Positions 15,339 through 60,376 of a stretch of 64,000 nt of DNA are shown one piece after another. Made by a program: the position numbers and the translations under genes. This DNA comes from Octopus vulgaris (lineage: Eukaryota): the NCBI GenBank assembly GCA_951406725.2, contig OX597825.1:45446001-45510000 (forward strand). Direction: 5' to 3'. A model generated the notes under the pieces. The model made no database searches. It was not told the DNA's origin and saw only the letters and a program-made list of their open reading frames with translations. Each line of letters begins with the position of its first letter. Positions within the stretch are counted from its first letter, which is position 1.

Positions 15339-15888
15339 CCATCTCAATATGGCTAACCACAAAGGGTGGGTGTTACTGTAGCTTTTAGCCCCAGGAGATC
15401 ATCGTCTCCAGCTGGCTTTAGGCACACTATCTGTGCCCTTATGGTATTTGCAAAGGGAGGTCGTCCCTTTCTTGTAAGCCTAAGTGATACGCACGGACCG
15501 CAGTTTCGAGGTAGTTGCCTCTTGTCAACGGGCGGTAATCACCGGTTTACGATGAAAAGGAAGACCTTGTATGCAAATACTCAAGTGTTTTTCTTGTAAC
15601 TTCCGTCACTGATTTCGAAAAACTGTCTGCAAACAATAATAAATCTCTGAACGAGATGTAAACAGTAACCGCTCGACTATGTAAAGTATAATAGCCATCT
15701 CAATATGGCTAACCACAAAGGGTGGGTGTTACTGTAGCTTTTAGCCCCAGGAGATCATTGTCTCCAGAAAGGGATGACCTCCCTTTGCAAATACCATAAG
15801 GGCACAGATAGTGTGCCTAAAGCCAGCTGGAGACGATGATCTCCTGGGGCTAAAAGCTACAGTAACACCCACCCTTTGTGGTTAGCCA
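15339..15888 (-). mobile_element. Non-coding retrozyme/Penelope-like element A1 (356 bp monomer + direct repeat + inverted segment)
   Basis: 15339-15411 is repeated at 15695-15767; 15766-15888 is the reverse complement of 15350-15472; HHR at 15490-15534. Confidence 0.75.
15490..15534 (-). ncRNA. Minimal type I hammerhead ribozyme, U3-A8 variant
   Basis: Minus strand: CGCCCG-TTGACAA-GAGG-CAACTA-CCTC-GAAA-CTGCGG-TC-CGTGCG. GUC cleavage triplet; stem III region ACUGCGGU is self-complementary with G-U pairs. Confidence 0.75.
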
Positions 15889-17389: not shown

Positions 17390-17981
17390 AGGGTTCAGTA
17401 AAATAATTTACTTTACCACACACCAAACTTTTAGAAATAGCAGCCAAATAATTTTAGCTATTTCCTCTACTATTGTCTCCCAGCCAATGTATACTCAAAA
17501 ATAATTCACGCAGGTATAGAGGGAAAAATAACGAAAGATCACACGTACATCGATTACTTGATATATATATATATATATATATGTATTTTGAATATTTGTC
17601 TTATTATTTATTTTCTTGTTGTTATTGGATAGTAAGTGAAGCATGTTTTTTATATATTAATATTATTATTGTACTTTTCTTGTTATGTATATCCTCTGAC
17701 GAGGCCTTTGGTTATTTAAACATACAAATATAATTTTTAATGCCTAGGACTATATTACAATGGCATCTATAGGCAATTTAAGTTGAATTGACTTTTGACC
17801 ATAGGTTGAAACAGCTGTAAGGAGCAGTTTATTTGTATTATTTTAATTTTTATTATTATATTACATATTGATGTTTATTGTTTTGTTCGATTTTGATGTT
17901 CCCATTTGTATAATTAATAAATAATGTGAAATTGTAATATCCGTAAGTTGATGATCGAAATGAATTTTCTTATTTGTATTA
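17390..17981 (+). mobile_element. Non-coding hammerhead-bearing repeat, family B, copy 2
   Basis: Homologous to 2001-2335 (reverse). The 5' part (AGGGTT...TAGAAATAGCAGCCAAA) resembles the arms at 47750-47894; the 5' boundary is uncertain. Confidence 0.55.
17692..17823 (+). ncRNA. Type I hammerhead ribozyme motif with expanded stem II
   Basis: TCCT-CTGACGA-GGCCTTTGGT-(85 nt)-ACCATAGGTT-GAAA-CAGCTG-TA-AGGA. Stem I TCCT/AGGA is perfect; GUA triplet. Confidence 0.65.
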
Positions 17982-17994
17982 TGAATTTACGGTA

Positions 17995-18985
17995 AAAGCA
18001 TTTTTTGGCTTTATTGAGAAAATTCTATAGTTTGTAAGATATTTGTTGTTGTTTTTCTGCAATTTCAATCAATCAGTGACGTCTATTGAGTTAAAAAGCA
18101 TTCTGTGCCGTATGAATCTGTCCCTCGTTTAAGAAACAGATTGGGTTTATTTACATTTGTAAAGAAAAAAAGATACCCTTCCCCCACCCCTAACCCAAAC
18201 TAACCCTAAAACAGATTGAAATGCAATAGATCGATACTAGGGTTATAATTATGGGTGACAATTTCATATGACACCACTAGAAAAAGCAGCCGTTTTTTCT
18301 TCACAAATGTAAATAAACCCAATCTGTTTCTTAAACGAGGGACATATTTAAGCAATCTTTCGTCTCTAGTAGACCTTTCCGTCGATTTCCGTAAAAATTT
18401 TTTTGTTTTTTACATATGGGCTTGCGGGAACTTTTGAAGTAATGAGAGCGAAAGAGACTAAGAGAAAGCGATTGTATGACGAGGGAAATTCTTTTGAAGT
18501 TACCGTGCATGGGAGCATTGATGTACATGTGTGTGTGTGTGTGTGTGTGTGTTTGATGGGGTGTGGGAGACAGACAGTATGTTGTGTAAGTGAAGTGCTT
18601 CTGTTAGTGTGTGTGAAGAGACAGAGTAATGTGTGAAAGAAAGAGTTATGTATATGTATGTATATTACTTCAAAAGTTCCCGCAAGCCCATATGTAAAAA
18701 AAAAATTTTTTAACGGAAATCGACGGAAAGGTCTACTAGAGACGAAAGATCGCCCATATTTATACGGCCCAGAATGTTTTCACCTCAACAGACGGTCATT
18801 GATTGGTTGAAATTGCCGAAATGCAAGAAATTAAAGACCAAATATCTTACAAACTATAGAATTTTCTCAATAAAGCCAAGAGAAAAAGATGTTTTATAAA
18901 CACATTCTACCAGTATACGAAGTTTAAAATTATTTAGTTACCTAGAAATTTATGTTAAAAACTGCCGTTCAAACCGAAAAGATCC
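17995..18985. mobile_element. Foldback/MITE-type non-autonomous DNA transposon, left end truncated
   Basis: ~17995-18160 is inverted relative to 18303-18350 plus 18755-18885. The right terminus ...GAAAAGATCC is shared with 20316 and 21239. Confidence 0.7.
18351..18754. mobile_element. MITE with ~90 bp TIRs and 8 bp TSD, nested in the previous element
   Basis: TIRs 18351-18442 and ~18664-18754 (GGCGATCTTTCGTCTCTAGTAGACC...); TSD CATATTTA at 18343-18350 and 18755-18762. Confidence 0.85.
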
Positions 18986-19303
18986 AGGATTTGTATTTTA
19001 ATGTGGTTTTGCATTATTCATATATCATGTACATACGTGTTATAAAGTATATTTATTATCCGATATCATCGGAATCTACACCATATGAAACGAATTTGTT
19101 GATATTTTCATTTAAAAAATCCATTTTTATGAAAGATATGAGGAAATAAAATCATTGGAGGAGTGAGGCTGGCCACTTGAGTAGGTTTGACATAAGTCCC
19201 AAATCAAACATTGAAATCGATTTACAAACTCTTTCTTTATAAGCTGATTGCCTTGACATTAATACACATAAATGTATGACGTATTACACATAATTATTTC
19301 AAT

Positions 19304-19370
19304 ATGGCTATTCTTCCCTGTGCAGTGTTTTCATCTCCTGATATTTCGGATTCTATAGATCTTATCAGGC
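19304..19370 (+). CDS. AAGAB: Alpha- and gamma-adaptin-binding protein p34, coding exon 1
   Basis: ATG...MAILPCAVFSSPDISDSIDLIR+C followed by the donor GTAAGT. Resembles the vertebrate N-terminus MAAGVPCALVTS; the phase-1 intron joins exon 2 in frame (C+AA = Gln). Confidence 0.8.
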
Positions 19371-20315
19371 GTAAGTAATAACTGATTAAGATCGTAAAAT
19401 ATATTAAGTACGGATAAATTTCTGTAATAAGTCATTATTTACTGTCGCTTTGTTTGCACGCTATTTTTTCTTAAATAATTATGATAGCATATTTAGACGT
19501 GTTTACTTATAATGTACGTATACGTACCATGTGTACATACGAAAGTATACGTTGAAGAGTTGCGGTGTATGTTTGCCTCTAGATTGAAATGTATCTGTCA
19601 AATTTGATGGCAAAACATTTCACTGAAGACAATGTTTTACTTATTAATTATTTGGTGCGGAAAAAGGGTGGCGATGGAAGGTGCAGTATATCTTTTCGAC
19701 AGGCATTTTCGCTGCGAGATTGTATTTTTAATTTCCTGTTAAAGAGTGAACATGTATTTATCTTTGAAATGATCTTAACGTAATGCCTATTCTTTGACAA
19801 GCATAACTACAGATTTCTGGGTAAATTTTCATTTACCGATTTCTGCCACCTCCCCCGACTTTGGATGATCGTAACTTTCAGAAAATGGATATTTTTAAAT
19901 AAAATTTTCTACGAATATGTATTATATCATTTAAATTCCGAATATACAAAATTTTAGGATTTGTGGGGGAAGCGTTTTAGGAGGGAATAGGGTGGGGAAT
20001 TTCAGAAAATTTACCGGAGTCCACTTCGTCTTAACTTTCAAGTAAATAGATATTTTTAAATGAAATCCTCCACAAATATACCTCGGACTATCTAGATTCC
20101 GAGGATATAGGAATTTGGGGGTGGGGAATAACTGGAGGTTATTTCTGAGAACTGTTCCCCACTTAGGGGTGTTTCGGAACAAATTCATATTTGTTTCATT
20201 TTGTGCGTTTGTGCATCCATAGATTTCCACTGAAGCAACTAACAGGCAATGAAGCCCTCACCAGAAAACTCGTTACGCTAAAAATAACAGCTAAAGTTCT
20301 GGTACACAGAAAGAT

Positions 20316-20487
20316 GGATCTTTTCTGTTTGATGGACGGAATTTTCTAGTTAACTAAAAAATTTGAAACTTTGTATACTGGTAGAATGTGTCAAACCCCA
20401 ATGCTTATTTTTTTAAACTCTGGTACTTATTCTGTTGAACTTTTTTGCTGAACTGCTAAAATTCCGTCCATCAAACAGAAAAGATCC
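20316..20487. mobile_element. Short MITE-like unit with GGATCTTTTCTGTTTGATGGACGGAATTT termini carrying captured SINE sequence
   Basis: TIRs at 20316 and 20459-20487; 20316-20457 is the reverse complement of 21098-21239. Confidence 0.7.
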
Positions 20488-20885
20488 AAGATATATTATC
20501 AAAGAAAAGGCCATAGCACCATCTTTAGTATCTGTTGTTATTATTATTATTATGGAGTTGAATGTGTGTGTGTGGTGAAGTTATTAATATCAATACATTA
20601 ACCAACACCATTGAAGTGAAATAATAGTTTCTATACTTTTGGTTTGGCACTGCTGAATTGAGTCAAAGACTATATAATACAAGTCAGCAGAAAAAGAAAA
20701 AAAATGCGATATCCATAACAATAACGAAATAAGACCTCCAAACCTTGTGTTTAAAATCTCCCTAACAAAAAGAAGAGAGGTTGTTTGGCTATGGACTACA
20801 TCAAAAAGTTTGCTCAAATCAAGTAAACTTATGAACCAAAGGTAGCCTAGCCATGAACATCTCAATGGTTTTCTTTCTTTTTGTC

Positions 20886-21160
20886 AGACATGGCTGTGTG
20901 GTTAAGATGGTTTCAAGTTCAGTTTCACTGCATGGCAATTTGGACAAGTGCCTTCTACTCTACCAGGCTGACCAGTGCCCAGTGAAAGAATTTGGTAGCT
21001 AGAAACTGTGCAAGTCTGTTGTATGTGTGTGTGTGTCTTTGTACCCCACCCTCACTACTTGACAACTGGCATTGGTTTGTTTACATTCCTGTAACTAAGC
21101 AGTTCAGCAAAAAAGTTCAACAGAATAAGTACCAGAGTTTAAAAAAATAAGCATTGGGGT
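20886..21160 (+). mobile_element. tRNA-derived SINE, decayed
   Basis: A-box-like TGGCTGTGTGGTTAAG and B-box-like GTTCAGTTTC, central (TG)n, 3' AGAATAAGTACCAG. Confidence 0.6.
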
Positions 21161-21324
21161 TTGACACATTCTACCAGTATACGAAGTTTCAAATTTTTTA
21201 GTTAACTAGAAAATTCCGTCCATCAAACAGAAAAGATCCTATATCTTTCTTGCTTATTTAAATTCAGTTCAATGCACACTTGCCTTGAACCAACCATTTC
21301 TCTTTGTGTTTATGTTCTTGATAA

Positions 21325-21790
21325 TTGTTTAGAACAAGTTGTTTTACACCTATTACACTTTTTATTTGTGGCCGGGTCAAACCCGGAACATTCACGATGT
21401 GAATTTTCCGAGTCCTCTCCCCACCCCCCTTTCGTAAGCGCGCATTTTTTTGTCATATTCGTTTAGAGCAAGTTGTGTTACACCTATTACACTATTTTTT
21501 TTTGTTTTTGTGCCCTCGTCAGACGCTTTCGGAAATGCGCTTTATCGAGCGCGCATTTTTTTCTCTTTTTATGTCATATTCGTTTAGAACAAGTTGTTTT
21601 ACACATATTACACGATTTTTTTTGTTTTTGTGCCCGGGTCAGACCCTCAGGCGCTTTCGGAAATTCACGATGTGAATTTTCCGAGGCCTCTCTCCCACCC
21701 ACCCCTTTCAAGAGCGCGCATTTTTTTGCCATATTCGTTTAGAGGAAGTTGTTTTACACCTATTTCACTATCTTTTTTGTTTGTTTTTAT
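21325..21790 (+). repeat. Diverged tandem array, ~120-155 bp units
   Basis: Four copies of GTTTAGA.CAAGTTGTTTTACACCTATTACAC with GCGCGCATTTTT motifs. Confidence 0.7.
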
Positions 21791-23645
21791 GACAGGGTCA
21801 ACGCTTTAGTTTGACTGAAATAATTCCCCCTTTGAACTTTTTTAATTGCATATATATATATGTGTGTGTGTGTGTGCGCGCGCACTCGTGCGCAGAAATC
21901 TACGGATGCCCAAACGCACAAAACGAAAAAAATCAAATATGGACGACTTGTTCCGAAACACCCCCGAATGGGGAACAGTTCTCAAAAATAACCCCCAATT
22001 GTTTTTTCCCCAAAATTCCTGTACCCGGAATCTCCATAATCCGAAGTATATTTGTTGAGAATTTCATTAAAAAATATCCAATTTAAGTGGACACCTGTGA
22101 ATTTTCCGAAATTTCCCACCCCATCCCCTCCTAAAGCATTTGTATATTTGGAATCTACATGATATAACACATATTCGTAGAAAATTTCATTAAAAAGTAT
22201 CCATTTTTCTGAAAGTTATGATCATCCAAAGTCGGGGGTTGGGGTCAGAAATCTGTAGTTAAGCCCCTTGACAAATGGAGTGCGTTAACCCCTACTGATT
22301 TTACTGCTGCTCCTGAATTCCTATAAGAAATACGGTTAATATATCGGGTAAGACCCGGTCACGGAAAAAAAAAAAAGTATCTTTTAAGTGTTAAAAAAAA
22401 AAAAAACGAATATGAAAGCAAAAATTTGCACAAACGAACAGGGGTGGGAGGAGAGGACTTTCGGAAAATTCACAAGATCCGATTTTTCCCTCATAACTTT
22501 CAGGAAAATGGATATATATTAATGAATAGAAATACCGTTCAAATGGCACAGATTACGATTATACCTCGGACTGGGTTTTACCCTATATATTAACCAAAAA
22601 TACTAAGGCATTCTATTTATGGAAAAAATTGATAAATATAAAATTTAATTGCAGGATTAGATATCATTTCAGCATACCTCCACTTGTGCCCCCGCCACCC
22701 GACTTCTTCGTAACTTTCAGAGAAATAGATATCTTTCGATGAAGTTTTCTACAAATATGCTTCAAATGGTATAGATTCCTATTATATCAGAATTTGGATT
22801 GAAAAAACAATTTTTCCAAGGGCGGGATGAGGAAATTAAGAAAATTTACATGAGTCGTCTTTGTTTCTTCATAACTTTCAGCAAATAGGATATTTTTTCA
22901 TGAAATTTTCTATAAATATCTTTCAGAGTGTGTAAATTATGATTACATCGTTATTTAACCTGAAAAAGAAAATTAGTGTGCACACACACATACATACTGA
23001 CACAAGTCACAATTGTTTTACGGAATTTCGAGTTTCATTTTGTAGATATCTATGATGTGTGTATGTATTTTTTCTGAAAGTTATGAGGAAAAAAAGCCGA
23101 TGCATGTGAATTTTTCGAAACTCACGAAATTTTTAGTTTTTTTTTTTTTATCACAGCAAATTCTGATATAATCGGAATCTACACTGTCTGAAGCGTATTT
23201 GTCGAACATTTCACAAAAAAAATATCCATTTTTCTGTAAGTTATGAAGAGACAAAGCCAGTGGGACACACATGTGGAGGTATCCTTAAAAATAGAAACTT
23301 AGTGTTTATTTTAGCCGACTTTGTTTATGTTATTTAACTCCATATCTGTTCTGATTGAGCAGACCTATGACCAAGGGAATTCCAATCTTTTTAGGAGTAC
23401 ATTATTTATTGCCATCCTTTAAAGCAGAAATATTTGAACATAAAAGAACCCTCATTACTGGTTTATAGAGGTTATTTGTTTCTTATAGGTATGCAGGTAA
23501 TGTGAGAGTTAAAAAAAGAGAGTTTTAAACTGCTTAAACTTGTCCAACTTGGTAGCAAAGTTTTGGTGTGTCTAGCCCTTGAAATCCCATGCCTCGCCCT
23601 TGAAATCCCATGCCTCATGAGAGTAGAAAAGAGTGGAATAATTTG

Positions 23646-31765: not shown

Positions 31766-31947
31766 AATTGCTCAATGTTGAGGAGTTACCTACAAGTGAA
31801 GAAGACAATGGGTACAAGTGGAATATAAACAACAAGTACTACACTGCACAAGTACAACTGTATGCCTTGCCAGATGCCACCTCTCCAGTTTGTAGGCAAT
31901 ACCCTGATTCAGTACAAGCTGTTATTCTCTATTTTGATGCCAATGAG
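31766..31947 (+). CDS. AAGAB: AAGAB coding exon 2
   Basis: TTTAG acceptor and GT donor at 31948. Encodes LLNVEELP...YKWNINNKYYTAQVQLY...DSVQAVILYFDANE, matching the AAGAB signature W.I.NKYY.A and VQA.V.YFD. Confidence 0.9.
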
Positions 31948-35350: not shown

Positions 35351-36376
35351 TATTTATGAACCAATGGGGGAGACCTCTATATGGTAGCTAGACCTAATAG
35401 AAATAGCAACCAAATCTCCCTCGAATTATACCAACTGTCTGATGTACGTATAAGCCAGTGTGGGAAACTACTACATAGTAGCTATAGCTGTTAGAAATAG
35501 CAGCTAAATCTCCCTCAAACCAAACCCTACTATTTTATGTATCTATGTATGTATGAGTCAGTGTAGGAGACTTCTCCATGGTAGCTATACCTCAAAAATT
35601 CCTTGTCTTGCAAGTTACTTGGTGACCCTGCTGGTGCTGGTGCTTATGTATGTATAGATTTATAAGTTGATCTGAGATGCATAAGGGAATGAATCTAACT
35701 GTTGTAGAAAGTTAGGATTGTAAAAGATTCAGTTCTGTATGAATAGCATTGAAGTTGCTGAGGATGTAAGATAGATGTCCTCAGTGTTTGAAGAAATGGT
35801 TGTTGGAAGAGACACAAAGGCAGCGGTTGCATTTAGACGAGTTGGGAAGATTTTGAGTAAGAGTAATCAAAAGTCATTGTGATGAGAAAGGAGAGTAGAA
35901 TCTATTTGCAGACTTTCCCTTTCAGAGTTAAGTTTGAGTATACTGTGGCTTGGATTGATGTTAAACTAGGTGGTGGATTGTGTCTACCATTAAAAAGGGA
36001 AGTTTAGAGGGGAGCTGTGGTGTTTTATCATCAATGCTTTTTATCCTCTTGAAATGACTATCAAATTCGATTCAACTGAATGGTTTGATCAAATACTTCC
36101 ATTCGATATCCTTCTCCACTATGGAGATGTTTTGATGAATGTTATAATGGACATAGCAAGCAGGCAGGTTGAATCAGTGTTTGTTGACATCTGGAAATGT
36201 TTCTATTATGGCTGTTCATAGCAAATTAGGAGGTAGACTAGTCCATTGTTTGTTGTGATAAAATATTTAATAGTGGATAGTGACTGGTCAGCTCAAATAT
36301 TTCTGTTTTCATTTTTCTCTGAAATACATTATATATCAGTTTATTTTCCCTTTCTTTAAAATGTATACATATTACA

Positions 36377-36934
36377 GAAATATTAATATTACTAAGTCTC
36401 TCTAAAAGAGATTGCGGCAGCGTCGCTAGAAATCAATTGTTATCGCCATATTAATATGGCATTCTTATTATAAGAATAAAAGCTGTCCGCTGATTAGCTC
36501 CATGAGGCCAAACGCCTTAAGATAGCTATGATACACAAACTGTATCCATTTTTAACCTTCGAACAAGGGAGGTCAGCCGCTTCACACTGCCAGTCCGACA
36601 GCTACAGACGCGTTTCAGGGTATTTGCCCTTTGTCAATGTAGCGCAGTCAGACCTCAGCAGGTGGCGACACTGACATCTCTGTTCGAAGGTTTTTATTTA
36701 TCTAGTTTCAGTGGAATACATCCACTTGTTCTTAATAACAGAAATATTAATATTACTAAGTCTCTCTAAAAGAGATTGCGGCAGCGTTGCTAGAAATCAA
36801 TTGTTCGAAGGTTAAAAATGGATACAGTTTGTGTATCATAGCTATCTTAAGGCGTTTGGCCTCATGGAGCTAATCAGCGGACAGCTTTTATTCTTATAAT
36901 AAGAATGCCTTATTAATATGGCGATAACAATTGA
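36377..36934 (-). mobile_element. Non-coding retrozyme/Penelope-like element A2 (364 bp monomer + direct repeat + inverted segment, 13 bp TSD)
   Basis: 36374-36441 is repeated at 36738-36805; 36801-36935 is the reverse complement of 36432-36566. TATACATATTACA flanks both sides (36364-36376, 36935-36947). Confidence 0.8.
36601..36643 (-). ncRNA. Minimal type I hammerhead ribozyme, U3-A8 variant
   Basis: Minus strand: GCTACA-TTGACAA-AGGG-CAAATA-CCCT-GAAA-CGCG-TC-TGTAGC. Perfect stems I and II, palindromic ACGCGU stem III, GUC triplet. Confidence 0.8.
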
Positions 36935-37554
36935 TATACATATTACATTATATTGAAATGCAAACTCAGTTGTAGCTGGTTCTTTATGCCAACCATTTTC
37001 CTTAAAAAGATTTGCATGGTGTGTATATTATCCATCCATCCATCCATCCACCCATACATATATGCATAAAATTGATTCTACTTTATATATAAAATGATTC
37101 TACCATTCATGTGTTGAATACATATACCAGCTTGGTGCCTGGTATGAATAAGACCACCAAAAACTGCAATATGAAAGATGCTCAAAAGAACAACCTCACT
37201 GCATCAACTATTGTACAGGTTAACAAGGAATATTTTCTGTTCTTAGGTAGAGGGTCCCATTCAAAAAATATATTGCAGTGCTGATACAACCAACAATAAG
37301 CTTGCAACTTGTTCTTGGAGGCACAGGGTAGGAGCACAGAGGATGCATGTCCCAGGACCTTGAAGCAGGTCCAAGAGGGATCAACCATTAATGATTTCAT
37401 ATTGAAATGTTATAATTCTTAGAGGCAAAGAGTAGAAACTGTTGCCAGAGAGATATAGTCAGTGTTACCTCTACAGTGTTCTGTGGGTCTGGTACCATAG
37501 ATTTGGATGGATGATGAATGAAACTCTACTGTTTGGGTGTGATGCCAATCACAA

Positions 37555-37919: not shown

Positions 37920-38241
37920 ATTTATTTATATATATATATATTTATATATAAATTAAATTAAAGATAAAACCACTATTAGGCAAATCAAACAGTGAAAAAC
38001 ATAAACCAAAACATAGAAATAAAATTAATTAATATAATATACAAATATATTGAGCATGGCCGTTGCCAGTAGCACCTGACTGGCCCTCATGCTGGTGGCA
38101 TGTAAAGGCACCCACTACACTCTTCGTGTGGTTGGCGTTAGGAAGGGCATCAAGCTGTAGAAACTCTTCCAGATCAGATTGGAGCCTGGTGCAGCCATCT
38201 GGGTTGCCAGTCACAGTCAAATCGTCCAACCCATGCTAGCA
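37555..38241 (+). mobile_element. Two RTE 3' UTR fragments (37555-37852, 38050-38241)
   Basis: Homologous to 11680-12020; separated by (TA)n and another short repeat. Confidence 0.75.
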
Positions 38242-41200
38242 TTTATATGAAGATGAGAAAACAGATGGGAGAGAAGGGTTTACGCATCCAAGATGGACAA
38301 ATAATCAAGTCCTACCTCTGGTCGCATGCTGTAGTGCTGACGGGGAAAGTGAATTGAGGGCGAATCGAAGTAAAGTAGATACCCCCGTCAACGATACCCC
38401 TTATTCTGCTTGTTCCCCAACTCCCGCCCCTCAAATTTCACAGCTCAGCATCGTCTATACCAACTCGTGCTCCTTATTTCCAAAGTTCAACAAACTATTT
38501 ACACTGGCCATATGTGACTCCCCTGATGTGATAGCTATCACCGAGACTTGGCTGACTCCAGCAGTAAAGCACTCAGAAATTCACCTACAGGGCTACGTCC
38601 TCTTCAGATGTGACAGAGAAAAAAGGCGAGGTGGAGGTGTTGCTGTGTATGTTAAATCTGATCACAAACCATCCAGCGGTATTCTACCCACTAATGCTCA
38701 ACCTACAACAAAATTCGATGCCGTCTATTGCAAGCTGAGCCTATCCGAGTTTTGCCTGCCCGCGTTAGCTGTCTACAGGCCGCCTCTTGCCGACCCCCAG
38801 GACGATGTTCATTTACTCGAAGCGATAAGATTCGTTTCAGCTTCTCGTGACTGTTTGATACTAGGTGACTTCAACGCTCCCACGATCGATTGGCCCGCAT
38901 CAATTTGTACATCATCATCCCGGTTCGGCTAGGCCCTTCTTGACGTGGCTGAAGATTGTTTTCTATTGCAACATGTTGAATATCCGACAAGGCATTGGTT
39001 TAGTCAGCAGCCATCTATGCTGGATCTGGTATTCTCCCGCTATCCAAGATCAGTGTCAGACGTATCTGTGTGCGCCCCTCTTGCCAAGAGTGATCATGCG
39101 GTCCTGAAGTTCGTCATGCACACAACTTTTTCTACGCCCACGACTACTTCGCTGCCACGTAGAGTCTTCTCTGCAATTAATCTTGAAATTCTAACCGAGG
39201 CTTCCGCGCTTCTGGACTGGCGATCCCTGATGACGTCCTCAGTTGACGAACTATGGTCATCCCTCAAAGCATATGTAATCTGGTTGACTGACCAGGCAGT
39301 TCCCGCTGGGCTTCCCAAGAAGAAGAAACACAAGGCCTGGGTGACGAAGAAGGTTAAATGAGAACTTCGACTCAGAGATATTGCTTGGGCTGAATTCAAA
39401 AATCTGGATTCGACTGCAGCTTTTGAGGTGTACAAAACTCAACGAGACCGAGCCGTGAAAATTGAAAAGGAAGAACGCTTCAGTTATGAATACAAAATCG
39501 CGGCAAATGCCAGTAGCAATCCAAAAACCTTCTTTGCCCATGTCCAACGGAATTCCCGCTTGAACAACCAGATTGCAACGTTGGTAGACTCAACAGGCGT
39601 ATCGATTGAGGACCTTTATCAACAGAGTCAATTATTTGCTGAGGCTTTTTCAACTATTTTCAAACAAGATGATGGTCGTGAACCCCCTCCATTTGATAGA
39701 TTGGTACCTCCAATGCTTCGATTGGTCATCACGCGGGACGAAGTCAAACGTGTTATTCAAGGCCTCGATGTCAACAAGGGTCATGGCCCTGACGGCATAC
39801 ACCCACAGGTTATCAAAGTGTTGGCTCCGGTCATCTGCGAGCCCTTAACACGTCTATTCAATATGTCATTGGCGACAGGTGTTATACCTGCGGACTGGAG
39901 AACAGCGATAATCTGCCCAATTTTCAAGAAAGGGAGCCACGAAGACCCGCTTAACTACCGACCAGTTTCCCTTACATCAATAATCAGCAAGATGTTTGAA
40001 ACCATCCTTAAGAAAAGTATGATGCTCCACCTCCAAAACACAGCCTCTATCTCTGATTCCCAACACGGCTTCGTGCCGAAGAGGTCATACTTGACCAACT
40101 TACTGGTAATGAAAGAATTGGTGACGCGCATCCTCGATGATAGTGATGCTGTTGACATCGTTTTATTGGACTTTGCCAAAGCTTTTGACTCGGTAAACCA
40201 CCACCTATTACTTGTCAAGCTTCAAGCTTATAGTTTCCATCCGGATATTGTACGATGGGTTGGTGCCTTCCTCTCAGATCGCTCCTTCCAAGTCCAAGTT
40301 AATGGTTCGCAGTCCGACGTCTCCAGTGCGAGCAGTGGCGTGCCTCAAGGTTCAGTGCTTGGGCCCTTATTGTTCTTAGTCTTCATAAATGACTTGCCCG
40401 ACGACCTCACGCAACACACCCTTCTATTTGCCGACGATGTCAAACTGGTCGCTCCTCGCGGTGATATAGAGGATCTTCGTCGATGCCTCCACCAAATTTG
40501 GAGGTGGTCTAACGAATGGGACCTGTGTCTGAACGTGTCAAAGTGCTGTCATCTGCCTGTTGGCTCTCCTCCTGCAACTCAACTTGATTTCGAGCCGGGT
40601 CGTCTGCTGCTGGAGAGGACCGTTCAGGTAAGGGACCTGGGTATCTTGGTGGATTCCTCCTTTTTGCCTTCGGCCCAGTGCGTCTATGCTGCCAACAAAG
40701 CACGCGGAATTCTGTTCTTGATTCGACGGTCATTCGGAATGATCACAGCAGCCATATTCCTACCACTCTATGTCACGCTGGTGAGACCCATATTGGAGTA
40801 CGGGATTCAAGCCTCTTCTCCTTATCTTTTCAAAGACATACAGCATCTCGAAAGAGTCCAGAAGCTGGCTACCCGCATAGTTCATGGTCTCGAAAATTTG
40901 TCCTATGAAGAAAGGCTGAGGACGCTCGACCTTTATTCTCTAGAAAAACACCACCGCCGTGGTGATCTCATTCTCGCCCACAACATCATAAGCGGAAAGT
41001 GTAACCTCTCGATAGAGCTGTTCTTCACTCCTGCTCCAGAGCATCGGCTGCGGGGTCATTCCGAAAAGCTCTACCTGTGATGATTTCATCTCAATTGAAG
41101 GAGAGGAGCTTTCTCCGTCCGGGTTGTGGATCCGTGGAACAAGCTGCCAGACGAGATGGTGAAGATGCTGACGACCGCTTTGTTCAAAGCCTCCTTTGAC

Positions 41201-41586: not shown

Positions 41587-44500
41587 TCTCTCTATATATA
41601 AACGGCAGTTTGTCTGTGTGTGTTTCTTGTGTCTGTTTGCTTGTACCCTCACTCTGACCACGGCTTTCAACCGATTCTGATGAAACTTGACACACACATA
41701 GCCCAATGTCATAATTCAAAACTAACGCAGCGAAAATTTTGAAAAGTTCCCCCAGTTCTGAAAAAAATTGATACATTCGACATGGGGTCGACAATCAGAA
41801 ACACAAACCACAGACTGTCTAGGGGACGCAACTCGAGAATCTAAGCTTTTTATATGCAACGCATTATCTATGGTAGTTTTCGCAACTTGCAATCGATTTT
41901 CACAAAACTCATGGGGAAGCTTAATGTTACCCTAAGAAACTCAATTCTGACGTTAGTTTTCCATGCAATACCTTACCATCAGAAACAATCGATAAAATCA
42001 TGCCATTTTGGGAAATCGCGTTCAAATTCAAGATGACATATTTTCGACAATATCTTTCACAAATTGGCAGGAATTTTTTTTTTTATTCACAACGAGCATC
42101 ATGTCTGCTCCAAGGAGCTATATAGCCCTTTTTATTCCAATAGGATACATTATTGGAAAAAATCGGTTAATTAAATCATATGTGGCACACATAGCAAACC
42201 AATTTGTGTATTAAACACAAACCAGACTGTCTAGGGGACGCAACTCGACCTTTTTAGCTATCGATAATTCGATCCAACCAATTCCTACCAGGAAGAAATT
42301 ACATTCGAGACTTTACCCCCAACACTTCTGCTAATAGCTGCTGCAGCCGCAAGTTATTCGAATACTTTTTTTGTTTACACTTTCTTTATAACTACCACCC
42401 CAAACGTTTTACCTTAAATTTTTGACGTACCCTAACAGTCCTCGGACGCTACTTGCAAACTCTTGGTTTATTATAAACCGCTTTTGTCATGTGCATCAAA
42501 AAACCTTTTCCTTTCGTTTGTTCAGTTTGGTCACTTTTGACTTTTTCGTTGTTGTCACTCACATTGCTGCCTGCTTTTTTGCCGTTTTTGTACATTTTTT
42601 TACATTTTGGGATACTTACCCCACGAGCTCCTTTTTATTACACCTTTACCAAACACATTGCTATCCACCAAAATACTTACCCCACGTGTTCCTTTTTATT
42701 ATACCTTTGCCAAACACATTGCTATCCACCAAAATGCCACCCAAGAAGAGAAGGACCCTCCTCAGCCCTCGGACGGCCAAGGCATCGGCTGCTAGGGCTA
42801 GAAGGGCACGCGAGACCCACGAGGAAACTGCCTTGCGCCTCTCGCAAACAGCTTCCCGTTCTGCCGCTGCTCAGGCATCTGAAACTACTAGCGACCGTTC
42901 TACCCGACTTGCAAGGGTCGCAGCGTACAGATCTTCCCTCCGGTCGAGGTTGACGAAAGAGCAACAGTCCAGCCAAAACATGCGGGCTTCTTCCTGTGCT
43001 TCCATCCGCAGAGCTCGCGAGAACCCCGAACAAAGGGCCATTCGGAATGCGGCTAACGCCACTAGCACCGCCAGGACACGATCTGTCGAAACCTCACAGC
43101 AGAGGAGAACTCGCCAAGATGCTGACGCCGCAAACAAAGCCATGGCCCAATCTGCCGAAACACCTCAACAGAGGAGAGCTCGCCAAGCTGCTAACGCCGC
43201 AAACACAGCCATGGCTCGATCTGCCGAAACTCCACACCAACGAACTATTCGGACATCCAGAAATGCCATTAACACTGCTTCTGCTAGGGCTTCAGAGGGT
43301 GCTGAGGCGAGAGCTGAAAGGCTTTCAAGGGATGCCACTGCTACCGCTGTCGCACGTGCATCTGAATCTGCTGAGGCTCGACTTGAGAGTATCAACAAAC
43401 GTCGGGATATCATTCGTTGTGTACGTACCCCTGCCCCCGCTTTCTGGTTGTCACTAGCATTCAACTACGACGCCACAATTAACTTCTCCTTGCGTGACGA
43501 CATCAAGATAGGGTCAATGACAATTGTATGCCAGTTTTGCTAAGCCAAGAAATGGCACGGAGAGCCACCTGGTTTGTGCTGCTCTGGTGGCAAAGTGGAC
43601 CTGCCACCCCTACGGGAACCACCTCAACCACTGAAGGATCTCGCGGCGGGTTTAACCCCCGAATCATCATAATTCCTTGAAATAATTCGAAGGTACAACT
43701 GCTCATTCCAAATGACCTCTTTCGGGGCCAAAATTCCTCTTAGAGAAGGCTGGATGCCTACTTTCAAAGTGCAGGGACAGGTCTACCATCTTATTGGGTC
43801 ACTTCTGCCAGACGAGATTCAGCAGTCTTCTTTCCTCCAAATATACTTCATTGCCGACTACAACCAGCAGGTTGATGCACGCCTTGGAATAATACCGGGT
43901 ACAAGCTATGTTCCCCGCAAAGACATTCTTCTCCGTCTCCAAACCATGCTTCATGATATCAACAGCTACGTCTGCAGCTTCAGATATGCCTTGGACAGTG
44001 CTCCATCTCCAAACTTCACCGTTGTCATTGATGCTGATAAACGACCCCACAGGGAGCACGAACGCTGTTTCAACGCACCTGCGTGCAACGAAATTGCTGC
44101 AGTCATACACGGAGGAGAGCAACACAACAGCCGTGACATAATCATCTCCTCCCGTGGTAACAGCCTACACAGGATCAGCGAGACTCACAGATCTTATGAC
44201 GTGCTTCAGTATCCATTGCTTTTCCCTTATGGGGAAGACGGCTACCACTTCGGAATTCCTTTACAGCAGCCCTCCAATCAAACTACTGCGGCATCAAAGA
44301 CGGTTTCCTGCAGGGCGTTCTACTCATATCGGTTCATGGTCAGGGAGGGTGAGTTCAGCTTATTGCCCCGTTGTCGTCAGCTATTCAACCAGTTCGCCGT
44401 CGACATGGCCGCCAAAATGGAATCAGAAAGGCTGCTATACATTAAACTTAATCAGACCAAACTTCGCTCCGACTCCTACATTCACCTCCGTGACGGCTTG

Positions 44501-47500
44501 CAACAAGAAAATGACCCTCGCAACATCGGCAAGCCATGCATTCTACCCTCCACCTTCACGGGAGGACCGCGATATATGCGTGAAAGGACCCAAGACGCCT
44601 TGACCTACGTGCGCATTTACGGCCGGCTGGACCTCTTTATCACCTACACGTGCAATCCCAGCTGCGACGAAATCACTCGCGAACTCCTCCCGGGTCAATC
44701 TCACACCCATCGACACGACATCGTTGCTAGGGTTTTCGGTCTGAATTTGGGCAAAATGAAGGATTTGATAGTTAAGGGTCAGATTTTCGGGCATGTCAGG
44801 TGCCACATGTTTTCGGTTGAGTGGCAAAAGAGGGGCTTGCCACATGCTCACATCTTAATTTGGCTAACTCATAAAATCGAGACTAATGATATTGACAAAT
44901 TCATTTCCGCCGAAATTCCTGACCCCGATGAGGACCCCGAACCCTACGAAATTGCCCGCACTACCATGGTACACGGGCCCTGTGGACCAAATTACGCCAA
45001 CACACCATGCTGCAACAACGGATTAGCCTGCTCAAAGGGATTCCCTAAACGGTTCACTTTGGAGACTCAAACAGGCGGCGATGGGTATCCTCTGTACAAA
45101 CGAAGGAGTCCAGCCAATGGAGGCCGCACGATTACGGTTGGGCGACATCAAGTGGACAACAGCTACATTGTCCCCTACTGTCCTCTCCTGTCGAAGATAT
45201 TCAAAGCCCACGTCAACGTTGAGTTCTTCAGCTCCATCAGGTCAATACAATATGTCTGCAAATATATCAACAAAGGCAGCGATGCTGCCATGTTCAGCAT
45301 CCAGAGGACCACCAGTTGCGACGAAGTGTCCAACTACTTGGCTGGCCGGTACCTCAGCAGCAACGAAGCGTTTTGGCGCATTTACGGCTTCCCGCTCCAT
45401 CAGAGACACCCGGCTGTGGTGCAGCTTGCTGTACACTTGGAAAATGGACAGCGGATTTACTTCACAGAGCAAAGTGCTGTGCAGATAGCCACCAGCCCTA
45501 AAGACACAACGTTGACTGGTTTCTTCAAATTATGCCAACGTGATGACTTCGCTCGAACGCTTTTGTACCCACAGGTCCCATCGTACTTCGTGTGGTCTAA
45601 AAACACCTGGGTTTGACGGAAATCCGGCAAAAACGTTGAAGGCTTCCCAGGTGTCAAGTTTGACTCCTGCCTGGGTCGAGTTTACAACATCCCGCCAAAC
45701 CAGCAAGAATGCTTCTACCTCCGTCTCCTTCTACATGAGGTCACTGGTCCAACAGGTTTCGGCAATATACGTACCGTCAATGGGGTTCTGTGCGACACCT
45801 TCAGGGAAGCATGTATGAGACTTGGCCTTCTAGAGGATGACTCCCAGTGGGACGCCACGATGGCAGAGGGCGCTTTACTGCAAACGCCTTCGGCCCTACG
45901 ACATCTTTTCGCAATCCTTCTTCAAAAATATCAGCTTAGTGACCCACTAAGTCTCTGGATGAAATACAGGGATGACATGTCGCACGACTTCTTACGTACG
46001 GCTCAGCAACACTGCCCTTCCGCCGAGATCACGTTCACCAACTTCATTTACAATTTTGCGCTCATTCAACTCGAAGACGCTGTCATCGATATGGGTGGGT
46101 CTGCTTTAACAGAGTACGGCCTTCCACCACCCACACGTGAACACGCCAATTTTATGTCTGCTGAATTGTTACGCGAAAATTCCTACTGCATTGAGGAACT
46201 GCACTAGTACGTCCAAGATAATGAACCACGGCTGCTTCCAGACCAGTGCATAGCCTACAACACCATCGTAGACTCTGTCAGACAGCAACGTGGGGGGATC
46301 TTCTTCCTTGATGCACCCGGCGGCACTGGCAAAACCTTCGTCACTAAACTAATTCTGGCGGAGGTCAGACGCAACACGGACATTGCCCTGGCTGTAGCTT
46401 CCTCTGGTATCGCGGCCACGTTGCTTCCGGGTGGCAGAACCACCCACTCTGCCTTCAGACTCCCGCTTGATCTGGCAAAGTCCGAGTCACCTATCTGCAA
46501 CATCGCCAAGAACTCAGAACAGGCCGACATTCTGTGCAGATGCAAACTCATCGTATGGGATGAGTGCACTATGGCACACAAAGGCGCCCTTGAGGCACTG
46601 GACAGGTCCCTGCAAGACATCAGAGACTCTACGGCCCCCATGGGAGGATTAACTTTACTTCTTTCAGGAGACTTCAGGCAGACTCTACCTGTTATTCCAA
46701 AAGGAACCCGTGCCGATGCCGTGCGCGCGTGCCTTAAGTCGTCAGCTCTTTAGGTACATGTGCGGCCCTTGCACCTCCAAACTAACATGCGCGCGCAGTT
46801 GATTGGTGACAGCGGATCCGCTGCATTCTCCAGGGACCTCTTATCGCTCGGTGAAAATAGGATGCTGGCTGATGCGGATGGCTGCGTTCAATTGGACTCA
46901 CTTTGCACCATTGTCGACACCCCTGCTAGCCTCCGGGACGCTGTCTTCCACGACCTACAAAACAATTTACGCGACCTAAAATGGCTGGCAGGCAGAGCTA
47001 TTCTCGCACCCAAAAATACAACCGTCAACTCCATCAATATCCAGCTACTTGAAGCTATTCCTGGTGATGTCCACGTCTACAAATCTATAGATAGGACAGC
47101 AGACCCCGCCCAGCTTGCTGATTATCCTGTTGAATTCCTGAATTCACTTGAGCCGCCAGGCCTGCCGCCACACATCCTGAAGTTAAAAGTCGGTGCGCCC
47201 ATTATGCTCATCAGGAATTTGGTTCCACCTAAACAGTGCAACGGCACACGTTTGGTTGTGAAACATTTGGCACCACATTTAATAACGGCCACAATACTTA
47301 CCGGTTGTGGGAAGGGAGAGGACGTCTTCATTCCACGGATGCACCTTCAACCGTCGGGCGCTGACCTACCAATCCACTTCAGGCGTTCTCAGTTTCCTGT
47401 TAAACTCTGCTTCGCAATGTCCATCAATAAATCCCAAGGCCAAACGCTACAAGTCGCTGGGTTACATTTGGGCGATCAGTGCTTCGCCCACGGTCAACTC

Positions 47501-47720
47501 TACGTGGGTGTTCACGCGTTGGGAGGCGCAATGATGTTTTCATGTTTTCGCCCAAACGGACAGCTAGGAACATCGTATATACAGAAGTATTCGAGTGAAG
47601 ACAAGACATTGCAACGTCCACATGCACCTTCGTTCCTTGGAGGGAAAGGACTACATTGGGATTAGTCGTTGCCTACTAGGGGCTCTTACATACCCGGGCA
47701 ACGCCGGGCTATGCTGCTAG
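41587..47720 (+). mobile_element. Near-complete autonomous-type Helitron (~6.1 kb)
   Basis: 5' A|TC...TATATATAAA; 3' hairpin CCCGGGCAACGCCGGG then CTAG|T at 47717-47720; contains a Rep/Helicase ORF. Confidence 0.95.
42734..47598 (+). pseudogene. Helitron Rep/PIF1 helicase, intronless, ~1620 codons, 4 in-frame stops and 1 late frameshift
   Basis: MPPKKRR start and ~23-aa ET.QQRR.R repeats. Rep motifs DLFITYTCNP, VEWQKRGLPHAH (HUH) and YVCKYINKG; helicase motifs DAPGGTGKT, IVWDE, GDFRQ, SINKSQGQT, HGQLYV. Stops at 43541, 45614, 46205, 46751; 1-nt loss near 47510. Confidence 0.93.
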
Positions 47721-59440: not shown

Positions 59441-60376
59441 ATGGACAACATGCAAAAATTAGAGGTGAATGCAAACACTGGCGTCAACAAAAGCCAGCGT
59501 AACTGGACGAAAGTAGAGCTGGAAGTTTTCATCAGAGGATGGAGCTCGGCCGACAGATCGCAACCAACTAAAAACATAGCGGCGACCCTGAAAAGCCATG
59601 GCTTTATGAGGACGTTGGCGCAAGTAGAGAGGAAGAAAAGAGAAGTCGAAAGGGCCTACACTCTCATTGCACCACACATGGCTTTGCTAAGCCAAGTCCT
59701 CAAGGTGGACAAAGACAAAGAGAGAGAGATGGAAACAGGAAACACCAACCACAGAGTGTCAAAAAATGACACGCCCACTGCCACAGTCGAAGAAGGCAAG
59801 CAGGGCAAACAACAGATAGGCGGCGATGGGGAAACAGAAAATAACCACCCGGATGAAAAGACCTATGCAGAAAGGAACCAGTGGACAACCGTCCAACGGA
59901 GGAAGAAAAAACAGAGAGGAACTGGGGACAAGAAAACCCAGATAACATGCAAATTCTTCCGGAATGGAACCTGCTGGCATGGAGAAACAGGGGAAGGATG
60001 CAGGTTCGCTCATCCCAGGCCCTATGGAAATTGCATCAAACCCACTCGACCAAAATGCCTTAACCAAAACCAGAACAAATACAAGCTGCCCCAGAAATAT
60101 GCAGACATAGTGCGTAATGCCCCAACAAGGAGAAGGCGCACATTTGCAGAGGAAATGCAGACGGCGGCAGCAGAACAAAGAAATTTTGTGGAAATGGCAG
60201 AGAAAATTGTGGGACAACTGGCCTGGATACATCGTCTTCAGAGCCAGGGGCACTCACAACAGCACTCAAGACCACCACAATCAAGGGACCCAGGGTGGCC
60301 ACCGCTGACGCCGGCCCAGGTGCCACACCGTCAGCCTTTATTGACACCCCGGGTGTCTCACCAGTGCTTCTGCTGA
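59441..60376 (+). CDS. LINE ORF1: Myb/SANT-like N-terminus and CCCH zinc finger
   Basis: Intact 311 aa ORF with RNWTKVELEVFIRGW...IAATLKSHGFMRTLAQVERK and CKFFRNGTCWHGETGEGCRFAH. Confidence 0.75.
   Translation: MDNMQKLEVNANTGVNKSQRNWTKVELEVFIRGWSSADRSQPTKNIAATLKSHGFMRTLAQVERKKREVERAYTLIAPHMALLSQVLKVDKDKEREMETGNTNHRVSKNDTPTATVEEGKQGKQQIGGDGETENNHPDEKTYAERNQWTTVQRRKKKQRGTGDKKTQITCKFFRNGTCWHGETGEGCRFAHPRPYGNCIKPTRPKCLNQNQNKYKLPQKYADIVRNAPTRRRRTFAEEMQTAAAEQRNFVEMAEKIVGQLAWIHRLQSQGHSQQHSRPPQSRDPGWPPLTPAQVPHRQPLLTPRVSHQCFC

What the first reader, a model, noticed from the sequence alone, without database searches (positions are those of the whole stretch)
36364..36947. HHR element A2: 13 bp TSD and ribozyme on top of a ~55 bp rod-like hairpin
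Seen: TATACATATTACA is duplicated on both sides. Stem I of the HHR continues as a long imperfect duplex (36554-36606 with 36638-36692, closed by AACCTTCGAACA/TGTTCGAAGGTT). The inverted segment begins at the base of this hairpin, with TTGTT microhomology at 36801-36805. Inference: target-primed insertion of a slightly longer-than-unit RNA, with a template switch or second priming producing the inversion. The rod fold is reminiscent of viroid-like/retrozyme RNAs. It lies antisense in the putative AAGAB intron 2.
Basis: partly seen in the sequence, partly recalled or inferred. Interest (0 to 1): 0.75.

Follow-up and report, generated by a model that had tools for sequence, protein, structure and literature searches.

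The report
Octopus retrozyme with Penelope-type insertion ends
This is one copy of an abundant 364-base non-coding repeat in an octopus genome that carries a predicted self-cutting (hammerhead) RNA motif and was likely pasted in by a Penelope-type jumping-gene enzyme copying RNA from both sides of one DNA break; such elements (retrozymes) are already known in animals.

Summary
In detail: exact 13-nt duplication, a 364-nt unit plus 71 nt, a 135-nt inverted arm joined over TTGTT, and a U3-A8 type I hammerhead on a long stem, antisense in the intron after AAGAB coding exon 2 of an Octopus. It is one copy of a large family (1,491 exact core matches). In 128 insertions, 197 of 208 outer ends lie at two fixed sites about 60 nt apart; 68 of 80 two-armed insertions use one of each. 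That is the 'tail' of Penelope-like elements, and an intact Penelope-like family in this genome has the same two-end pattern, (TA)n targets and hammerhead core. Inner breakpoints vary but pile up at the hairpin base (22 of 197; 5.7 expected), where A2's lies. Corrections: the predicted circle is branched, not a rod; both ends were primed separately rather than by fold-back. No empty site was seen; cleavage, circles and expression are untested. A2 is an orphan variant (nearest copy 94%). Verdict: new member of the known non-LTR retrozymes. This scan already reported the same kind on other DNA of this genome.

The parts
36364..36376 (+). Target-site duplication, copy 1 (TATACATATTACA); its last 6 nt overlap the element's long ('A') end
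   Evidence: 12-15 nt duplications in other copies
36371..36805 (-). Direct arm, 435 nt: one full unit plus 65 nt of the preceding unit plus the 6-nt overlap; 3' end at start site A (unit position 6)
36377..36740 (-). One 364-nt retrozyme unit (non-coding; longest ATG-frame 48 aa in a tandem trimer)
36371..36431 (-). About 60-nt 'tail' between the two family-wide start sites, present at this end only
36554..36692 (-). Long imperfect hairpin (46 pairs below the core) that extends hammerhead stem I; closed by a 12-bp helix whose 3' strand is the breakpoint hotspot
36601..36643 (-). Type I hammerhead motif with U3-A8 core and palindromic helix III (ACGCGT); predicted cleavage between 36607 and 36606; activity untested
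36801..36805 (.). 5-nt microhomology (TTGTT) joining the two arms head to head
36801..36935 (+). Inverted arm, 135 nt (unit positions 175-309); outer end at start site B, inner end in the hotspot at unit positions 171-180
36935..36947 (+). Target-site duplication, copy 2
31768..31947 (+). Context: AAGAB coding exon 2 (start approximate); the element lies in the following intron on the other strand

Best explanation
A2 is one genomic copy of a non-coding, 364-nt hammerhead-bearing repeat family (a non-LTR retrozyme) that was likely inserted in trans by the RT/GIY-YIG protein of a Penelope-like element, which probably primed reverse transcription from both ends of one staggered DNA break. Shown by sequence: the family, its two fixed outer ends, the 13-nt duplication, the head-to-head junction with microhomology, and the conserved fold. 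Inferred steps: (1) the repeat is transcribed as a multi-unit or circular RNA; the hammerhead, probably acting as a dimer through its palindromic helix III, would cut multimers to monomers that can circularise; (2) the Penelope-like protein cuts both strands of an AT-rich target about 12-13 nt apart; (3) one 3' end primes at AU-rich site A (unit position about 6, helped by 5-6 nt of pairing) and the other at site B (about 309), 60 nt upstream; (4) the two cDNAs run different distances; the A cDNA ran 435 nt, straight through the ribozyme site, and the B cDNA stopped after 135 nt on entering the 12-bp closing helix of the long hairpin; (5) their ends were joined over TTGTT and the gaps filled, giving the duplication. 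No host function is implied.
For: Family: 1,491 exact matches of a 22-nt core pattern and 3,494 of a 23-nt tail pattern, 0 for reversed controls (units, not insertions). Of 151 loci fetched, 23 were duplicates or overlaps, leaving 128 insertions including A2: 197 of 208 outer ends fall at A (112) or B (85) (windows set); 80 of 128 are two-armed, of which 68 are A+B, 2 A+A, 0 B+B, 10 with one end elsewhere. 178 of 207 start-side flanks are TA/TAA microsatellite. Neither arm is contained in the other in 25 of 68 A+B insertions and arm lengths are uncorrelated (rho -0.09, p 0.49). 46 of 77 two-segment junctions overlap by 1-8 nt. 12-15 nt duplications in other copies with non-pure-TA flanks, e.g. 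L030, L069, L089, L009. Same genome holds intact 781-aa RT + GIY-YIG frames with a CxxC motif before GIY-YIG, a U3-A8 minimal hammerhead TTGATAA...GAAACATGT downstream of the ORF, (TA)n targets and a short and a long end about 35 nt apart. The older retrozyme subfamily has that same core (15 of 99 copies with ACATGT); the palindrome covaries ACATGT/ACGCGT and stems I and II show two-sided changes. Literature: tandem + inverted + tail + microsatellite bias in PLEs (PMC8557442, passages); both strands cut and extended, two RT start sites define the tail (PMC11167929); U3-A8 in PLE hammerheads (PMC4209133); retrozymes as non-autonomous PLE derivatives (bioRxiv 10.64898/2026.07.22.740005).
Against: No DNA similarity between the unit and 50 PLE loci beyond a neighbouring retrozyme copy and short AT-rich matches, so the specific partner is not identified; the tail is about 60 nt here, 35 nt in that PLE family and 30-40 nt in the literature. 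In vitro the anole PLE showed no difference in start site between the two strands, whereas the A+B rule here is near-strict. No empty allele seen: the filled left junction is in organisms A, B and D. Breakpoints are not enriched at the ribozyme cut (9 vs 6.3 expected, p 0.18) and 135 of 197 arms cross it, so cleavage left no footprint. Private variants are mostly confined to some units of an insertion (138) rather than shared by all (7), which gives no support for a circular monomer over a uniform multimer as template. Junction overlaps were read from BLAST ends without a null control.
Confidence: 0.85

Rival explanations
1. One priming event followed by fold-back or template switch of the nascent cDNA (self-priming, as proposed for PLE inverted repeats) made the inverted arm.
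For: In A2 itself the inverted arm's sequence is contained in the direct arm; some hotspot junctions show short fold-backs at the local palindrome CCTT-GTTCG-AAGG / TTCGAA (L057, L082). Self-priming on an antisense template was proposed in PMC3846280 (passage).
Against: 25 of 68 A+B insertions have neither arm contained in the other; in 11 of these both arms are under 303 nt, so each holds unit sequence the other lacks. A fold-back gives no reason for the inverted arm to end at one fixed site.
Confidence: 0.07
2. The element is a solo or tandem pseudo-LTR left by an autonomous Penelope-like element, not an independent retrozyme.
For: Same insertion anatomy and same hammerhead core type as the co-resident PLE.
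Against: Arrays of up to about 7.5 pure units with no coding sequence between them (L148); PLE protein matches occur in only 4 of 128 loci, none shown to be continuous with the unit; no DNA similarity to PLE loci.
Confidence: 0.05
3. The repeat is mobilised by an ordinary LINE (L1-type twin priming) or spreads at the DNA level as a satellite.
For: LINE-type RT/APE elements are abundant in the window; twin priming also gives 5' inversions with a TSD (recalled; listed only).
Against: No poly(A) end; the second priming site is fixed regardless of where the first arm stops, unlike L1 twin priming as I recall it; dispersed insertion into (TA)n with two fixed ends does not fit unequal crossing-over.
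Confidence: 0.03

Closest known systems
Metazoan non-LTR retrozymes (Cervera & de la Pena 2020, PMC7229834; Li, Clavereau & Pollet 2026, bioRxiv 10.64898/2026.07.22.740005)
   Same: Non-coding tandem units of 150-450 bp (mussel 350-390), one type I hammerhead per unit, GC below 50%, TSD longer than 4 bp, no LTR/PBS/PPT described, co-occurring PLEs, strongly self-paired predicted circle.
   Different: U3-A8 core; inverted arms and two fixed start sites are not mentioned in what I read (the word 'inverted' does not occur in PMC7229834); the preprint sampled no mollusc; cleavage and circRNA are shown there, untested here.
EN+ Penelope-like elements (PMC8557442; PMC3846280; PMC11167929)
   Same: Partial tandem plus inverted 5'-truncated copy, tail at one end only, 8-10 bp TSDs reported in rotifer copies, microsatellite bias, hammerhead with palindromic helix III, two RT start sites.
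   Different: No ORF; tail about 60 nt instead of 30-40; a canonical-size hammerhead (6-bp stem I, 4-bp stem II) on a 46-pair stem instead of a minimal one.
PLE hammerheads with U3-A8 (Schistosoma Cercyon; PMC4209133)
   Same: U3-A8 covariation in the core; palindromic 15.2-16.2/loop 3; probable dimeric action.
   Different: Those are minimal motifs in pseudo-LTRs or single copies; here it is the fixed state of a whole retrozyme family (95 of 99 copies).
Viroids and viroid-like circular RNAs (recalled; listed only)
   Same: Size, hammerhead, high self-pairing (z about -7).
   Different: Branched not rod-like; hammerhead found in one polarity only; genomic and inherited; no evidence here of RNA-to-RNA replication.

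Membership tests
Metazoan non-LTR retrozyme | Tandem non-coding units of 150-450 bp | tested here: met
   364-nt unit, arrays up to about 7.5 units, longest ATG-frame 48 aa
Metazoan non-LTR retrozyme | One type I hammerhead per unit with intact core and helices | tested here: met
   core is the U3-A8 variant; Rfam models do not hit
Metazoan non-LTR retrozyme | Many dispersed genomic copies, TSD longer than 4 bp when present | tested here: met
   1,491 and 3,494 pattern matches; 13 nt in A2, 12-15 nt in others; no empty site seen
Metazoan non-LTR retrozyme | [quoted passage not shown] 2026) | tested here: met
   Met by the family (e.g. L033, L003, L148); not met by A2 itself, which holds one hammerhead
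Metazoan non-LTR retrozyme | Self-cleavage in vitro | not testable with these tools
   needs transcription assay
Metazoan non-LTR retrozyme | Accumulation as linear and circular monomer RNA | not testable with these tools
   only contigs of runs guessed to be RNA were available
Penelope-like element (autonomous) | ORF with RT and GIY-YIG endonuclease | tested here: not met
   no ORF in the unit; no PLE protein match in the window
Penelope-like element insertion signature | Partial tandem plus inverted 5'-truncated copy with a tail at one end | tested here: met
   68 of 80 two-armed insertions have one long and one short end
Penelope-like element insertion signature | AT-rich or microsatellite targets | tested here: met
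   178 of 207 start-side flanks
Non-autonomous derivative of a given PLE | Sequence homology to the partner's pseudo-LTR | tested here: inconclusive
   only the hammerhead core letters are shared; 50 PLE loci, mostly one family, were compared
Viroid-like RNA | Rod-like circular fold | tested here: not met
   7 hairpin loops in the circular sense fold of all 4 units tried
Viroid-like RNA | RNA-to-RNA replication | not testable with these tools
   needs strand-specific RNA data

The most novel reading that the evidence does not exclude
A2 is a genomic snapshot of an RNA lineage that diverged outside the genome. Its two arms differ at only 2 of 200 positions, yet it is at most 94% identical to any other copy examined, two diagnostic 20-mers match nowhere else in 2.8 Gb, and its private changes spare the hammerhead. 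It could have been copied from a circular RNA that had replicated as RNA (viroid-like) before a Penelope dimer, priming at two set sites and halted by the long hairpin, fixed it in an intron.
Probability: 0.05. Interest if true: 0.8.

Novelty: new member of a known kind. Interest (0 to 1): 0.3.

Why it matters
As a class it is known. Its value is as a record of mechanism: how Penelope-like elements make their tandem-plus-inverted insertions is described as undefined (PMC8557442, passage), and this family gives a near-strict one-long-end/one-short-end rule, independent arms, a 12-13 nt stagger that can be read in the few copies outside microsatellites (A2 is one), and a breakpoint hotspot at a defined RNA helix. 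These predict the outcome of an existing in vitro assay (PMC11167929). I did not find the double-priming reading for PLEs or an octopus retrozyme in the searches made (listings only), but earlier notes of this scan reached the same reading on other families in this genome.

Tried and rejected
Rfam at gathering scores: 0 hits in the window. Pfam Adaptin_binding search of the genome: no match, and no control rang, so uninformative; AAGAB was confirmed by other routes. Empty site: four DNA or unlabelled runs and four runs guessed to be RNA showed no joint skipping the element; contigs cross the filled left junction in X1, X5 and X10; X9 and X20 do not reach the site; the right flank has no cover in the four runs. 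One X7 contig ends exactly at 36935, the first base of the right TSD copy, which an empty allele beside a filled one would cause, but X7 has no cover at the left junction, so it is a hint only. Expression: no RNA holder listed; family-like contigs occur in runs guessed to be RNA, which shows nothing about level, strand, ends or circles. Circle-versus-multimer test by private variants: 7 shared by all units against 138 in some units only over 76 insertions; not discriminating. Footprint of ribozyme cleavage in breakpoints: none. Mirror strand of the closing helix (unit 47-62): 4 stops, no excess. The hotspot cannot be assigned to the long helix alone, since a short local palindrome lies at the same place; it is seen in the chromosome-1 pattern samples (18 of 153 arms after removing A2, two look-alike junctions and one degenerate end) but not in the best-hit sample (1 of 38), which is selected for full units. 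Hidden PLE ORF between two tail matches 2.4 kb apart: a local duplication, no ORF. Covariation counts used 34 of the 38 distinct hairpins (four cut by junctions left out); the tool warns that related sequences can beat its shuffles. Post-insertion gene conversion as the cause of A2's near-identical arms was considered; old copies keep 13-27 differences per about 310 positions between their own units (L122, L134, L144), so it is unlikely but not excluded. Look-up of earlier notes by sequence and near this place gave nothing. Supplements of the bioRxiv preprint were not seen; they list its species and families.

Full report
Coordinates. 'q' is the position in the 364-nt unit read on the minus (sense) strand: q1 = window 36740, q364 = 36377.

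1. The observation. TATACATATTACA stands at 36364-36376 and 36935-36947; at local composition a 13-mer match within +/-15 nt of both ends has a chance of about 4e-5. Between them lie a direct arm of 435 nt (q300 to q364, a full unit, and 6 nt that overlap the duplication) and an inverted arm of 135 nt (q175-309), sharing TTGTT at 36801-36805. The doubly copied parts differ at 2 of 200 positions. A strict descriptor finds one hammerhead in the window, at 36637 on the minus strand, with a U3-A8 core, 6-bp stem I, 4-bp stem II and the palindrome ACGCGT as helix III; Rfam has no hit. Stem I continues into a hairpin, 36554-36692, at -66.4 kcal/mol, z -7.6, 46 pairs below the core. The host is an Octopus: the exon at about 31768-31947 matches Octopus AAGAB at 95-98% and human AAGAB chains; exon 1 is at 19304-19372, no further exon lies in the window, and the last exon is downstream on the same strand.

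2. The family. The unit has 2,568 first-look candidates in G000, the best other copies at 92%. Exact patterns give 1,491 matches for the ribozyme core and 3,494 for the tail, with 0 for reversed controls; these count units. I fetched 151 loci: 30 best hits, 60 clusters from the first 100 core matches and the clusters from the first 100 tail matches on C1. Dropping 23 duplicates or overlaps left 128 insertions including A2. Of 208 outer ends, 112 lie at site A (q358-15, 104 of them at q3-7), 85 at site B (q293-318, 69 at q307-311) and 11 elsewhere; the windows were set. Eighty insertions have two arms head to head: 68 A+B, 2 A+A, none B+B, 10 with one end elsewhere. Both sites fall in predicted single-stranded AU-rich stretches. 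178 of 207 start-side flanks are TA or TAA microsatellite; A2 is one of few in plainer sequence, and others of these show 12-15 nt duplications (L030, L069, L089, L009).

3. Breakpoints. Inner ends are spread round the unit but 22 of 197 fall at q171-180, against 5.7 in a length-jitter null; 0 of 3,000 simulations reached 22 in any 10-nt window. With A2, two look-alike junctions and one degenerate end removed, the excess remains in the C1 samples (18 of 153) and is absent from the best-hit sample (1 of 38), which is selected for full units. Both A and B arms stop there (12 and 7) and their partners differ, so it is not one inherited junction. A short palindrome at the same place gives fold-backs in some copies, so helix and palindrome cannot be separated. 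There is no excess at the ribozyme cut (9 vs 6.3) and 135 of 197 arms cross it, 32 twice or more: the template was an uncut multimer or a ligated circle. The private-variant test did not tell these apart (7 shared, 138 not).

4. Two primings, not a fold-back. In 25 of 68 A+B insertions neither arm fits inside the other, and arm lengths are uncorrelated. In 11 of the 25 both arms are under 303 nt, so each holds sequence the other lacks. 46 of 77 two-segment junctions overlap by 1-8 nt, 7 are blunt, 14 have extra bases, 10 overlap more (BLAST ends, no null).

5. Structure. In 34 distinct hairpins (of 38) 92% of cells pair, 7 of 54 pairs change on both sides (shuffles 3.9; 3 of 500), slid controls pair at 31-39% (related sequences inflate this). 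Two-sided changes occur in stem I, stem II, the extension and the helix III palindrome. 95 of 99 copies keep U3-A8; 78 have ACGCGT, 15 ACATGT, 3 a non-palindromic form, 3 are broken. The circular monomer is strongly folded (z -6 to -8) but branched, 7 hairpin loops in all 4 sense folds: the rod is one arm only.

6. The likely enzyme. A GIY-YIG search gave 148 matches among 150 scored of 6,136 candidates, many in 781-aa open frames that carry RT and GIY-YIG and a CxxC motif before the nuclease, which PMC8557442 ascribes to Neptune, Nematis and Naiad types (passage); I did not place it in a tree. Downstream of the ORF is a minimal hammerhead TTGATAA...GAAACATGT, the same core letters as the older retrozyme subfamily. 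Its copies end in (TA)n at a short or a long site about 35 nt apart. Beyond the core there is no DNA similarity to the unit in 50 loci, so the partnership is inferred.

7. Age and the orphan variant. The filled left junction is present in organisms A, B and D, with 0, 3 and 2 flank differences over 706, 704 and 351 nt: the insertion predates their split and no empty allele was seen. Two A2-diagnostic 20-mers match only A2; the nearest of 51 other copies is 94.3% against a median nearest-neighbour identity of 98.4%. Its private changes are in both copies where the sequence was copied twice, so they were in the template, and they spare the ribozyme. A lost or unassembled source copy is the plain explanation; RNA-level replication, raised for mussel circles and PLE hammerheads in PMC7229834 and PMC4209133, is the bold one.

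8. What is known. Non-LTR retrozymes are tandem 150-450 bp units with type I hammerheads, expressed as circles in coral, mussel and axolotl (PMC7229834; passage search and parts 2-3 of 6). A 2026 preprint argues that they are non-autonomous PLE derivatives and sampled no mollusc (parts 1-3 of 5; supplements not seen). Tandem/inverted/tail/microsatellite anatomy is standard for PLEs (PMC8557442, passages; PMC3846280, passages). The anole PLE cuts and extends both strands and starts at two internal sites that define the tail (PMC11167929, parts 1-2 of 4). U3-A8 is a described PLE variant (PMC4209133, parts 1-2 of 4; the only hit). Searches for octopus + hammerhead ribozyme and twin priming + Penelope + inversion listed nothing on this family or this reading (listings only). 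L1 twin priming and viroid features are recalled. Earlier notes of this scan describe the same kind, and the same two-start reading, for other repeats in this genome; they are unchecked AI notes, seen after my counts, and are not evidence.

9. Verdict. Real, accurately described, and a new member of a known kind. Shown: anatomy, family, fixed ends, hotspot, conserved fold, co-resident PLE with like ends. Inferred: the enzyme, double priming, the cause of the hotspot. Untested: cleavage, circles, expression, empty site. Interest 0.3.

Noticed in passing
window 15339-15888: A second insertion of the same anatomy (period 356, 73-nt direct repeat, 123-nt inverted arm) with a U3-A8 hammerhead-like core at 15528 on the minus strand; 62% identical to the A2 unit over 148 nt, so a related but distinct family.
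   Followed up: partly
G000 C12:45465304-45572833 (+) and C12:46061094-46066392 (-): AAGAB residues 171-284 map on the opposite strand about 0.5 Mb from exons 1, 2 and the last exon: an inversion or mis-assembly splits the gene in this assembly.
   Followed up: no
L183:1745-5170, L186:1-4958, L188, L199: A young, intact two-frame Penelope-like family (479-aa upstream frame without a clear Pfam family, 781-aa RT + GIY-YIG frame) with a U3-A8 minimal hammerhead, an array of repeats with CCAAT- and CRE-like words (labels recalled) in its 3' region, and short/long ends 35 nt apart.
   Followed up: partly
L040:1146-1754; L057:1152-1754; L082:1269-2282: Junctions with short extra pieces (fold-backs at the hairpin base or jumps onto earlier cDNA) between the two arms.
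   Followed up: no
L102 and L143; L063 and L121: Pairs of distant insertions with nearly the same inner junction, suggesting that composite inverted insertions can themselves be re-copied.
   Followed up: no
window 36935, run X7: A contig of the right flank ends exactly at the first base of the right TSD copy; compatible with an empty allele but not shown.
   Followed up: partly
window 42392-47662; 38240-41077; 60118-63314; 10277-11053: A Helitron (STPR repeats, Rep and Pif1 domains), two LINEs with endonuclease and RT domains, and an RT fragment followed by a PHD finger.
   Followed up: no
window 17900-23300: Several further inverted-repeat pairs (e.g. 18352-18443/18664-18753; 20308-20457/21098-21250) with no hammerhead found by the descriptor.
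   Followed up: no
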